From NCBI RefSeq assembly GCF_000026545.1, contig NC_011601.1: a stretch of DNA of 64,000 nt, one strand, 5' to 3'. The notes under the pieces were generated by a model, which saw nothing but the letters and a program-made list of their open reading frames with translations, was not told the origin of the DNA and ran no database searches. Made by a program: the position numbers and the translations under genes. Shown one piece after another: positions 37,269 through 41,627 of the stretch (positions are counted from its first letter, which is position 1; every line of letters begins with the position of its first letter). Origin of the DNA: Escherichia coli O127:H6 str. E2348/69 (GTDB lineage: Bacteria > Pseudomonadota > Gammaproteobacteria > Enterobacterales > Enterobacteriaceae).

Positions 37269-37354
37269 CGTAAACTCCTGATAGCATTTTGAAAGCCGTT
37301 ATAGTAGCGGCTTCACATCTTCAGCGATAGTCACATCCACCGTCATCAGAACAC

Positions 37355-37382
37355 AAAAAAACCTGCCGGAGCAGGTTTTTTG
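37355..37382 (-). terminator. rho-independent terminator after azuC
   Basis: Hairpin cctgccgga/gcagg flanked by A/T runs directly after the azuC stop. Confidence 0.55.
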
Positions 37383-37469
37383 TTATCGGAACATATTGCC
37401 TGGCGGTACGTCTTTGAACGTCTTGCAATAGTTATTGAACATACTTTTCAGGATCTTGCGCAGTTTCAT
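37383..37469 (-). CDS. azuC: 28-aa small membrane-associated protein AzuC (isrB transcript)
   Basis: Minus strand ATG at 37469 translates MKLRKILKSMFNNYCKTFKDVPPGNMFR*, identical to the known AzuC peptide; too short for the ORF track. Confidence 0.85.
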   Translation of the reverse strand: MKLRKILKSMFNNYCKTFKDVPPGNMFR

Positions 37470-37551
37470 CGCGGTACTCCGACCATTTGTTATACAGGTG
37501 TTATTGTCTTTGCGTTTATAATATGACAACCATCACAAAAATCAATCTTTA

Positions 37552-37567
37552 TGTGATGTAAATCACA
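37552..37567. promoter_or_regulatory. CRP-consensus site upstream of azuC
   Basis: tgtgatgtaaatcaca = TGTGA-N6-TCACA, ~80 bp upstream of the azuC start. Confidence 0.6.
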
Positions 37568-37731
37568 TAAACACCCCTTTAATGTTATAAAAATGATAAT
37601 CAAAAAGCAGCCCCCCAATTTCTGACACATACAGATGGCAAGAAATAGCGCCTGCCAGGCGTCTTTTCCGGCCATTGTCGCAGCGCTGTAACGCGTAAAA
37701 TACTGCTTTCTTTTACTCTTCTGGCTGGACC

Positions 37732-41325: not shown

Positions 41326-41412
41326 TGGTACCCGGAGCGGGACTTGAACCCGCACAGCGCGAACGCCGAGGGATTTTAAATCCCTTGTGTCTACCGATTC
41401 CACCATCCGGGC
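41326..41412 (-). tRNA. leuZ: tRNA-Leu (anticodon UAA)
   Basis: Minus strand GCCCGGATGGTGGAATCGGTAGACACAAGGGATTTAAAATCCCTCGGCG...GGGTACCA, cloverleaf with CCA end. Confidence 0.9.
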
Positions 41413-41424
41413 TCGGGAAGAAAG

Positions 41425-41498
41425 TGGAGGCGCGTTCCGGAGTCGAACCGGACTAGACGGATTTGCAATCCGCTACATAACCGCTTTGTTAACGCGCC
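41425..41498 (-). tRNA. cysT: tRNA-Cys (anticodon GCA)
   Basis: Minus strand GGCGCGTTAACAAAGCGGTTATGTAGCGGATTGCAAATCCGTCTAGTCCGGTTCGACTCCGGAACGCGCCTCCA. Confidence 0.9.
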
Positions 41499-41551
41499 AA
41501 ATTCTTCAGGCCTTTCAGCCAGACATCCGCTGACGCCGATGCCTTTTAAAC

Positions 41552-41627
<76 letters not shown>

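What the first reader, a model, noticed from the sequence alone, without database searches (positions are those of the whole stretch)
37383..37567. Small protein gene azuC with terminator and upstream CRP-consensus site, missed by ORF calling
A 28-codon ORF (MKLRKILKSMFNNYCKTFKDVPPGNMFR) on the minus strand matches the known AzuC peptide, is followed by an intrinsic terminator, and has a perfect TGTGA-N6-TCACA palindrome ~80 bp upstream. It falls below the ORF-track length cutoff, showing that real short genes in this window need manual inspection.
Basis: partly seen in the sequence, partly recalled or inferred. Interest (0 to 1): 0.35.

Follow-up and report, generated by a model that had tools for sequence, protein, structure and literature searches.

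The report
Known E. coli azuC/AzuCR small gene
This is the already well-studied E. coli gene azuC: a 164-nt RNA that both encodes a 28-residue protein and acts as a regulatory RNA.

Summary
The 28-codon ORF is at 37383-37469 (-). A strong intrinsic terminator follows it immediately. A perfect TGTGA-N6-TCACA palindrome lies at 37552-37567. The window is E. coli, 100% identical to EPEC E2348/69 here. RefSeq annotates the ORF as azuC. The peptide scores 75.9 bits on the NCBIfam AzuC equivalog model (cutoff 30).

The transcript is the dual-function AzuCR/IsrB RNA, starting at window 37511. The palindrome is centred at -48.5. It has a partner site, TGTGA-N6-TCATA, at -18.5 over the -10 hexamer. CRP represses this promoter; it does not activate it. 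The 5' UTR carries the validated FnrS target. A 2025 paper calls the same palindrome an FNR repressor site.

My eight-sequence alignment across four genera gives an independent footprint. Both operator cores, the -10, the FnrS target, the reading frame (third positions vary) and the terminator are conserved; flanking DNA is not. The gene is patchy in Enterobacteriaceae. Verdict: real, correctly identified, already known, low interest.

The parts
37383..37469 (-). azuC coding sequence, 28 codons plus a TAA stop
   Evidence: Translation is. RefSeq annotates it as azuC in E2348/69 and K-12. NCBIfam NF033642 scores 75.9 bits. Within Escherichia there are 9 synonymous and 1 conservative non-synonymous codon variants. 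Across 4 genera, invariant columns at codon positions 1/2/3 are 23/20/7 of 28.
37348..37511 (-). AzuCR (IsrB/IS092) transcript, 164 nt. The +1 A is at 37511. RefSeq places the azuR 3' end at 37353.
   Evidence: The published TSS, K-12 1988001, maps to window 37511 with an offset of 1,950,490 (PMC8915982). The window differs from K-12 at 3 of 164 positions: +37, +57 and +162.
37350..37381 (-). Rho-independent terminator: AAAAAACCUGC-UCCG-GCAGGUUUUUU followed by a U-run
   Evidence: Found by the scan. It folds at -16.0 kcal/mol, z = -5.6. The stem is invariant and the loop varies across 4 genera.
37552..37567 (.). Distal CRP-type operator, a perfect TGTGA-N6-TCACA centred at -48.5. This is the same DNA as the published 'FNR' repressor motif.
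   Evidence: Core halves are invariant at 8/10 columns against 1/6 for the spacer, across 8 sequences. The FNR motif coordinates come from PMC12266141.
37522..37537 (-). Proximal CRP-type operator, TGTGATGGTTGTCATA, centred at -18.5. It overlaps the -10 hexamer.
   Evidence: Only 3 sites in the 64 kb window have one mismatch or fewer, and this one lies 30 bp from the distal site. Core halves are invariant at 10/10 columns against 2/6 for the spacer. Two predicted CRP sites are reported in PMC8915982 and PMC12266141.
37518..37545 (-). Sigma-70 promoter: -35 TTGATT (37545-37540), 16-bp spacer, -10 TATTAT (37523-37518, positions -12 to -7)
   Evidence: Found by the scan. The -10 is invariant at 6/6 columns across genera. 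Its position relative to the published TSS is canonical.
37487..37504 (-). Conserved 5'-UTR block AUAACACCUGUAUAACAA (+8 to +25). It contains the FnrS target CACCUGU (+12 to +18, window 37494-37500).
   Evidence: 15/18 columns are invariant across 4 genera, while the rest of the UTR is about 4/24. The paper places FnrS 5'-end pairing 25-31 nt upstream of the ORF and confirms it with compensatory mutations (PMC8915982). The 7-bp duplex is -11.5 kcal/mol here.
37476..37479 (-). Shine-Dalgarno GGAG (+32 to +35), 7 nt before the AUG
   Evidence: Read directly from the sequence.
37398..37423 (-). AzuR base-pairing segment (+89 to +114), inside the ORF
   Evidence: In a local duplex search this segment is the best partner for cadA -15 to +10 (-24.2 kcal/mol) and for galE +17 to +44 (-19.8). 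Those positions agree with the published ones: cadA near its RBS, galE within its CDS, and the pairing region inside the ORF (PMC8915982, PMC12612679). The energies are not better than shuffled controls.
37556..37586 (.). Published PhoP (37556-37573) and NarP (37570-37586) repressor motifs, mapped from K-12
   Evidence: Coordinates are from PMC12266141 and were mapped. This stretch is conserved within Escherichia but not across genera (2/27 columns).

Best explanation
The locus is the E. coli azuCR (isrB) gene. A sigma-70 promoter drives a 164-nt RNA from window 37511 to about 37348 on the minus strand.

The RNA has two activities:
- As an mRNA it encodes AzuC, a 28-residue, cationic, amphipathic peptide. 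[quoted passage not shown]
- As the sRNA AzuR, a segment inside the coding region pairs with the cadA and galE mRNAs and lowers their expression. Translation and pairing therefore compete.

Transcription is shut off by cAMP-CRP when glucose is absent. My inference for the mechanism is that CRP binds two operators 30 bp apart, at -48.5 and -18.5. The proximal one covers the -10 hexamer and would exclude RNA polymerase. The distal palindrome, or DNA overlapping it, is also reported as a target of FNR, PhoP and NarP repression. Under anaerobiosis, the 5' end of FnrS pairs with +12 to +18 of the 5' UTR and blocks AzuC synthesis. A strong hairpin and U-run directly after the stop codon ends the transcript.

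Shown here: the identity and anatomy of every element, and their selective conservation. Taken from the literature: GlpD binding, cadA/galE and FnrS pairing, and the direction of CRP control. Inferred: repression by promoter occlusion, and cooperation between the two CRP sites.
For: Identity:
- The region is 100% identical to the annotated azuC of E2348/69, and 5409 of 5426 complete E. coli genomes carry it.
- K-12 annotates azuC (b4663) nested inside azuR (b4434).
- The NCBIfam equivalog scores 75.9 bits against a cutoff of 30.

Coding:
- Within Escherichia there are 9 synonymous and 1 conservative non-synonymous codon variants, with 15.7 synonymous and 68.3 non-synonymous sites available.
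- Across 4 genera, codon positions 1/2/3 are invariant at 23/20/7 of 28 columns.
- GGAG sits 7 nt before the AUG.
- Residues 1-20 have a helical hydrophobic moment of 0.53 against 0.24 +/- 0.12 for shuffles. Net charge is +6.

Promoter and operators:
- The published TSS lies 7 nt after TATTAT.
- Two of the only three sites in 64 kb with one mismatch or fewer are here, 30 bp apart.
- In both sites the core halves are conserved (8/10 and 10/10 columns) while the spacers are not (1/6 and 2/6). DNA upstream of the distal site is not conserved (2/27).

Other elements:
- FnrS target: UTR +8 to +25 is invariant at 15/18 columns and holds the exact complement of FnrS nt 1-7.
- Terminator: z = -5.6, with an invariant stem.

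Function and regulation come from PMC8915982, PMC12612679 and PMC12266141.
Against: - I found no direct CRP-DNA binding data (footprint or ChIP) for these two sites in the papers I could read. Both are described as 'predicted'. The primary source, Hemm 2010 (PMC2798279), is not held.
- PMC12266141 reports that IPOD-HR occupancy changes lie mostly upstream of the annotated CRP sites.
- A centre at -48.5 matches neither the class I nor the class II activating positions. That is compatible with repression but does not prove it.
- My AzuR-cadA and AzuR-galE duplex energies are not better than shuffles: 3 of 30 and 19 of 30 shuffles do as well. Those pairings therefore rest on the published compensatory mutations, not on my computation.
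- The Kluyvera distal site is degenerate (CGTGATTCAACTCTCA), so the two-site architecture is not universal.
Confidence: 0.93

Rival explanations
1. The distal palindrome is functionally an FNR operator and not a CRP operator. In this reading CRP control runs only through the proximal site, or is indirect.
For: PMC12266141 lists an FNR repressor motif at K-12 1988042-1988058, which is exactly this palindrome. It reports derepression when the motif is mutated and in an fnr knockout, and cites FNR ChIP-seq signal near the promoter. The inner TGAT-N4-ATCA matches 8 of 10 FNR consensus positions.
Against: The bases that distinguish CRP (GTGA/TCAC) from FNR (TTGA/TCAA) are of the CRP type and are invariant across genera. 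The FNR-like inner A/T positions are lost in Enterobacter (GTGATGCAGGTCAC). Mutating the motif would also destroy a CRP site, so that experiment does not separate the two homologous regulators. The flhDC CRP site scores the same 8/10 on the FNR consensus, so that score does not discriminate.
Confidence: 0.15
2. The RNA is only an mRNA, or only an sRNA, in this EPEC strain. One of the two K-12 activities would have been lost.
For: Three substitutions separate the window from K-12, including +37 in the SD-AUG spacer. My target-pairing energies are statistically unremarkable.
Against: The peptide is identical to K-12's. The +57 change is synonymous and +162 lies after the terminator. The pairing segment +89 to +114 and the FnrS site are identical to K-12. 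Purifying selection on the frame is clear.
Confidence: 0.04
3. The conservation reflects a gene on the opposite strand: the 48-aa + strand ORF at 37380-37526, annotated as c2317 in CFT073.
For: An antisense ORF exists mechanically. An 'antisense of azuC' probe, c2317, gave a sigma-S-preferred in vitro transcription signal (PMC3141248).
Against: That ORF shares triplet boundaries with azuC, so the variable columns fall on its first codon positions, which is the opposite of a coding signature. RefSeq does not annotate it. The RBS, promoter, terminator U-run and published TSS all belong to the minus strand.
Confidence: 0.01

Closest known systems
AzuCR / IsrB (IS092) of E. coli K-12 (azuC b4663, azuR b4434)
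   Same: The peptide is identical and 161 of 164 transcript positions are identical. The promoter, both CRP-type cores, the FnrS target, the terminator and the neighbours (yecJ, yecR, ftnA, ftnB) are the same.
   Different: There are two changes in the non-contacted spacer of the distal palindrome (TTTACA against TTTGTA). One base differs in the NarP motif. The transcript differs at +37 A/G, +57 G/A (synonymous) and +162. These are strain-level polymorphisms only.
Spot 42 / SpfP (E. coli) and VcdRP (Vibrio cholerae): other CRP-repressed dual-function RNAs of carbon metabolism
   Same: Each is a small RNA that both base-pairs with mRNAs and encodes a peptide of fewer than 30 residues. Each is transcriptionally repressed by cAMP-CRP. 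In AzuCR and VcdRP the peptide activates a metabolic enzyme (PMC12612679; PMC8916003).
   Different: The sequences and peptides are unrelated. In AzuCR the pairing region lies inside the ORF, so the two activities compete, and its translation is itself controlled by another sRNA, FnrS (PMC8915982).
flhDC CRP site in the same window (27186-27201)
   Same: It is also a perfect TGTGA-N6-TCACA core.
   Different: Its centre is 269.5 bp upstream of the flhD start codon. From my own knowledge, that corresponds to the class I activating position of -71.5. The azuC sites are at -48.5 and -18.5 and mediate repression.

Membership tests
AzuC small protein (NCBIfam NF033642 stress_AzuC, equivalog; Pfam PF28150) | Sequence scores above the curated cutoff of the equivalog model | tested here: met
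   75.9 bits against a cutoff of 30, E = 1.3e-21, covering profile positions 1-26 of 26. The local Pfam-A copy returned nothing. PF28150 'AzuC' is, however, attached to the orthologues in precomputed annotations.
AzuC small protein | Identity to the reference protein and the syntenic position between yecJ and yecR | tested here: met
   The CDS is annotated azuC (WP_010723106.1) in an identical genome segment, flanked by yecJ and yecR. The K-12 peptide is identical.
AzuC small protein | The reading frame is under purifying selection, so it is a real coding gene | tested here: met
   9 synonymous and 1 conservative non-synonymous variants within Escherichia. Codon positions 1/2/3 are invariant at 23/20/7 of 28 columns across 4 genera.
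AzuC small protein | Amphipathic helix; binds GlpD and stimulates it | tested here: inconclusive
   Amphipathicity is met: hydrophobic moment 0.53 against 0.24 +/- 0.12 for shuffles, with 1% of shuffles as high. GlpD binding cannot be tested with these tools and is taken from PMC8915982.
AzuCR/IsrB dual-function sRNA | A ~164-nt transcript with the published TSS, a sigma-70 promoter and an intrinsic terminator | tested here: met
   The TSS maps to 37511, 7 nt after TATTAT. The terminator folds at z = -5.6. 161 of 164 positions are identical to K-12. Transcription itself was not measured.
AzuCR/IsrB dual-function sRNA | A base-pairing segment inside the ORF that is complementary to cadA (RBS) and galE (CDS) | tested here: inconclusive
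   The best local duplexes fall at the published kinds of position and use AzuCR +89 to +114, but their energies are within the range of shuffles. The segment is identical to K-12, where compensatory mutations validated the pairing (PMC8915982).
AzuCR/IsrB dual-function sRNA | An FnrS target 25-31 nt upstream of the ORF | tested here: met
   CACCUGU at +12 to +18 is complementary to FnrS nt 1-7, with one G.U pair (-11.5 kcal/mol). It lies in a block that is invariant at 15/18 columns across genera.
AzuCR/IsrB dual-function sRNA | Membership of an Rfam family | tested here: not met
   No Rfam 15 family matches the locus. There are only sub-threshold hits of STnc370 and rsmX to the terminator. 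This reflects the lack of a matching curated family and is not evidence against identity.
CRP regulon (repressed promoters) | A match to the CRP consensus TGTGA-N6-TCACA at a position compatible with repression | tested here: met
   There is a perfect core at -48.5 and a one-mismatch core at -18.5 that overlaps the -10. Cores are conserved and spacers are free across genera.
CRP regulon (repressed promoters) | Direct CRP binding and crp-dependent expression | not testable with these tools
   Crp-dependent repression is reported by Hemm 2010, as cited in PMC8915982. The sites are called 'predicted' there. I found no footprint or ChIP result in the papers held.

The most novel reading that the evidence does not exclude
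The perfect palindrome at -48.5 may be a single operator shared by the two homologous regulators CRP and FNR, and partly overlapped by PhoP. Carbon, oxygen and Mg/pH signals would then compete for, or converge on, the same 16 bp. If so, the 2025 'FNR site' mutation data cannot be separated from loss of CRP control. The cross-genus footprint, with invariant GTGA/TC.CA, suggests that CRP-type recognition is the ancestral constraint.
Probability: 0.3. Interest if true: 0.3.

Novelty: already known. Interest (0 to 1): 0.1.

Why it matters
The finding matters mainly as a calibration point. A reader with no tools correctly recognised a real 28-codon gene, its terminator and a regulator site, which shows that sub-cutoff ORFs in such windows can be genuine. 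Biologically, nothing here goes beyond the published AzuCR work.

Two small additions come from this analysis:
- A cross-genus footprint independently supports both predicted CRP operators, the FnrS target and the reading frame.
- The recently published 'FNR' motif is the same DNA as the distal CRP site. This is a caveat for interpreting the site-mutation experiments in that paper.

Tried and rejected
1. Rfam, with permissive E-values on 3.5 kb and gathering thresholds on all 64 kb, has no family for AzuCR. The only matches are sub-threshold STnc370 and rsmX hits to the symmetric terminator, on both strands, which I take as chance.

2. A degenerate DNA pattern for MFNNYCK scanned against one genome per species returned 54 loci. 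Only 3 were real (E. coli clade, E. whittamii, Escherichia sp. E1V33). The rest are chance hits at about the expected rate.

3. The search for homologous proteins refuses queries under 40 aa and the look-up of encoding contigs needs at least 30 aa. I therefore anchored on the neighbour YecJ to reach other genera.

4. Full-length RNA duplexfold zips the whole molecules together and is uninformative. I replaced it with a windowed local search.

5. My first FnrS test looked at the RBS region (+15 to +60) and should be disregarded. The validated site is +12 to +18.

6. The first region-conservation table was off by one base and was redone (one search replaced).

7. The whole-transcript fold is not unusually stable (z = -1.0). 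A predicted 5'-UTR CCUG:CAGG pairing with the PPG codons is not conserved across genera, so I rejected it.

8. Hemm 2008, Hemm 2010 and the EcoSal review are not held, and no supplementary files are held for PMC8915982.

9. A terminator-like hit at 37661-37649 (-), upstream of the promoter, is not conserved even within Escherichia, so I treated it as chance.

Full report
**Observation**

On the minus strand, an ATG at 37469 opens a 28-codon frame that ends with TAA at 37385-37383. It translates exactly to MKLRKILKSMFNNYCKTFKDVPPGNMFR.

Two nucleotides after the stop codon comes AAAAAACCTGC-TCCG-GCAGGTTTTTTT (37381-37350). The terminator scan picks it up. On its own it folds at -16.0 kcal/mol against -4.8 +/- 2.0 for dinucleotide shuffles (z = -5.6).

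The palindrome TGTGATTTACATCACA occupies 37567-37552. Perfect TGTGA-N6-TCACA cores occur twice in the 64 kb window against 0.06 expected. The stated interval (37383-37567) leaves out the terminator. The mechanical ORF list shows only a 48-aa TTG-initiated version of the frame, whose start lies upstream of the transcription start, so that longer ORF is not real.

**Identity**

The 421 bp around the ORF are 100% identical to E. coli E2348/69. Of 5426 complete E. coli genomes, 5409 carry at least 80% of it, annotated as 'azuC: stress response protein AzuC'. The neighbours are yecJ, ftnB, yecR, ftnA, yecH and tyrP. In K-12 the CDS is b4663, nested in the ncRNA azuR, b4434. The peptide scores 75.9 bits on the NCBIfam equivalog model NF033642 against a cutoff of 30.

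**Anatomy relative to the literature**

Raina et al. 2022 (PMC8915982) describe a 164-nt AzuCR RNA starting at K-12 1988001. With the local offset of 1,950,490, checked directly on the K-12 record, the elements map as follows:

| Element | Window coordinates (minus strand) | Position relative to the TSS |
|---|---|---|
| Transcription start, an A | 37511 | +1 |
| -10 hexamer TATTAT | 37523-37518 | -12 to -7 |
| -35 hexamer TTGATT, 16-bp spacer | 37545-37540 | -34 to -29 |
| Second site, TGTGATGGTTGTCATA (proximal) | 37537-37522 | centre -18.5, over the -10 |
| Shine-Dalgarno GGAG | 37479-37476 | +32 to +35 |

The promoter hexamers come from the scan. The proximal site is one of only three sites in the window with one mismatch or fewer, and it lies 30 bp from the distal site. 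Both papers speak of two predicted CRP sites.

CRP represses this promoter. AzuC-SPA and AzuCR levels are high in glucose, low in glycerol, and derepressed in a crp mutant (Hemm 2010, as cited in PMC8915982). The window's transcript differs from K-12 at only three positions: +37, +57 (synonymous) and +162.

**Independent evolutionary evidence**

The degenerate-pattern scan found only three Escherichia lineages, so I used YecJ as a syntenic anchor. An azuC orthologue with about 85% peptide identity lies directly upstream of yecJ in the Enterobacter, Kluyvera and Kosakonia loci. It is absent from the sampled Salmonella, Citrobacter, Klebsiella aerogenes and Cedecea loci. This agrees with the published remark that AzuC is conserved in only a limited number of enterics.

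In the eight-sequence alignment (counts), conservation is sharply partitioned:

| Region | Invariant columns |
|---|---|
| Upstream of the distal site | 2/27 |
| Distal core halves | 8/10 |
| Distal spacer | 1/6 |
| Proximal core halves | 10/10 |
| Proximal spacer | 2/6 |
| -10 hexamer | 6/6 |
| 5' UTR, +1 to +7 | 1/7 |
| 5' UTR, +8 to +25 | 15/18 |
| 5' UTR, +26 to +42 | 3/17 |
| Codon positions 1 / 2 / 3 | 23 / 20 / 7 of 28 |
| Stop codon through terminator | 24/31 (loop variable) |
| Downstream of the terminator | 1/28 |

Within Escherichia alone there are nine synonymous codon variants and one conservative K8R change. This is the footprint expected of a translated ORF flanked by two CRP-family operators. 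It also excludes the antisense ORF, whose first codon positions would be the variable ones.

**The conserved 5'-UTR block**

I first noted this block as unexplained. Its centre, CACCUGU at +12 to +18 (window 37494-37500), is the exact complement of FnrS nucleotides 1-7. [quoted passage not shown] The duplex is -11.5 kcal/mol in E. coli, where it includes one G.U pair, and -13.9 in the other lineages. The flanking AUAACA repeats remain unassigned; an Hfq (ARN) contact is a guess.

**RNA activity**

A windowed duplex search places AzuCR +89 to +114, inside the ORF, against cadA -15 to +10 and against galE +17 to +44. These match the published kinds of position: the cadA RBS, the galE coding sequence, and a pairing region within the ORF (PMC8915982; PMC12612679). 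The energies are not better than shuffles, so this shows consistency only. The segment is identical to K-12.

**Peptide**

Residues 1-20 have a helical hydrophobic moment of 0.53 against 0.24 +/- 0.12 for shuffles, and the net charge is +6. This fits the published amphipathic, membrane-associated activator of GlpD.

**A nuance about the palindrome**

Ekdahl et al. 2025 (PMC12266141) report FNR, PhoP and NarP as repressors acting through motifs at K-12 1988039-1988076. On the K-12 record, the FNR motif (1988042-1988058) is the same DNA as the perfect CRP palindrome (1988042-1988057). PhoP overlaps its upstream half, and NarP abuts it.

The discriminating bases are of the CRP type (GTGA/TCAC) and are invariant across genera, whereas the FNR-like inner positions are not. 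The flhDC CRP site scores the same 8/10 on the FNR consensus. I therefore keep CRP as the primary reading of the site. FNR as sole occupant is a minor rival, and shared use is the most novel reading left open.

**Mechanism**

- Shown here: element identity, positions and selective conservation.
- From the literature: CRP repression, FnrS control, cadA/galE pairing and GlpD activation.
- Inferred: CRP at -18.5 occludes the -10, helped by a second dimer about three helical turns upstream.
- Missing: a direct CRP footprint or ChIP result. I found none in the papers held, and the primary paper is not held.

**Verdict**

It is not wrong. Interest is low.

Noticed in passing
window 27186-27201: This is the only other perfect TGTGA-N6-TCACA core in the window (TGTGATGCAGATCACA). 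It lies in the flhD-uspC intergenic region, centred 269.5 bp upstream of the flhD start codon. From my own knowledge, that matches the classic class I (-71.5) CRP activator site of flhDC.
   Followed up: partly
window 37487-37504 (-): The 5'-UTR block AUAACACCUGUAUAACAA is nearly invariant across four genera. Its centre is the validated FnrS target. The flanking direct repeat AUAACA-N5-AUAACA has no assigned role; Hfq ARN-type binding is a guess.
   Followed up: partly
window 37549-37586, equal to K-12 1988039-1988076: The FNR motif published in 2025 coincides exactly with the distal CRP palindrome. PhoP overlaps it and NarP abuts it. The window carries one substitution in the NarP motif (AACACCCC against AATACCCC in K-12).
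   Followed up: yes
L061 (Salmonella), L062 (Citrobacter), L064 (K. aerogenes), L067 (Cedecea), against L063, L065 and L066: azuC is patchy among Enterobacteriaceae even though yecJ is widely conserved. In several genera an MFS transporter and a LacAB_rpiB/DUF3666 gene lie between yecR and azuC or yecJ, and these are absent from E. coli.
   Followed up: partly
window 37380-37526 (+): A mechanical 48-aa ORF lies antisense to azuC and is annotated c2317 in CFT073. A 2011 in vitro transcription study saw a sigma-S-preferred signal for this antisense probe (PMC3141248). The codon-position pattern argues against it being coding. An antisense transcript remains possible.
   Followed up: partly
window 9288-9595 (-), 21466-21543 (+), 5310-5352 (+), 41326-41627 (-): Other RNA genes in the window pass the Rfam gathering thresholds: MicL, C0465 and ES036 (CssrF). 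There is also a tRNA cluster, Gly(GCC)-Cys(GCA)-Leu(UAA).
   Followed up: no
window 37350-37381: The azuC terminator is symmetric, with an A-run before the stem and a T-run after it, so it could terminate transcription in both directions. It gives sub-threshold STnc370 matches on both strands. yecJ starts 115 nt downstream on the same strand, so read-through into yecJ is conceivable.
   Followed up: no
window 37649-37661 (-): A terminator-like hairpin, CGCCTGGCAGGCG followed by T-rich sequence, lies upstream of the azuC promoter in the azuC-yecR divergent region. It is not conserved in the other Escherichia lineages and is probably chance.
   Followed up: partly
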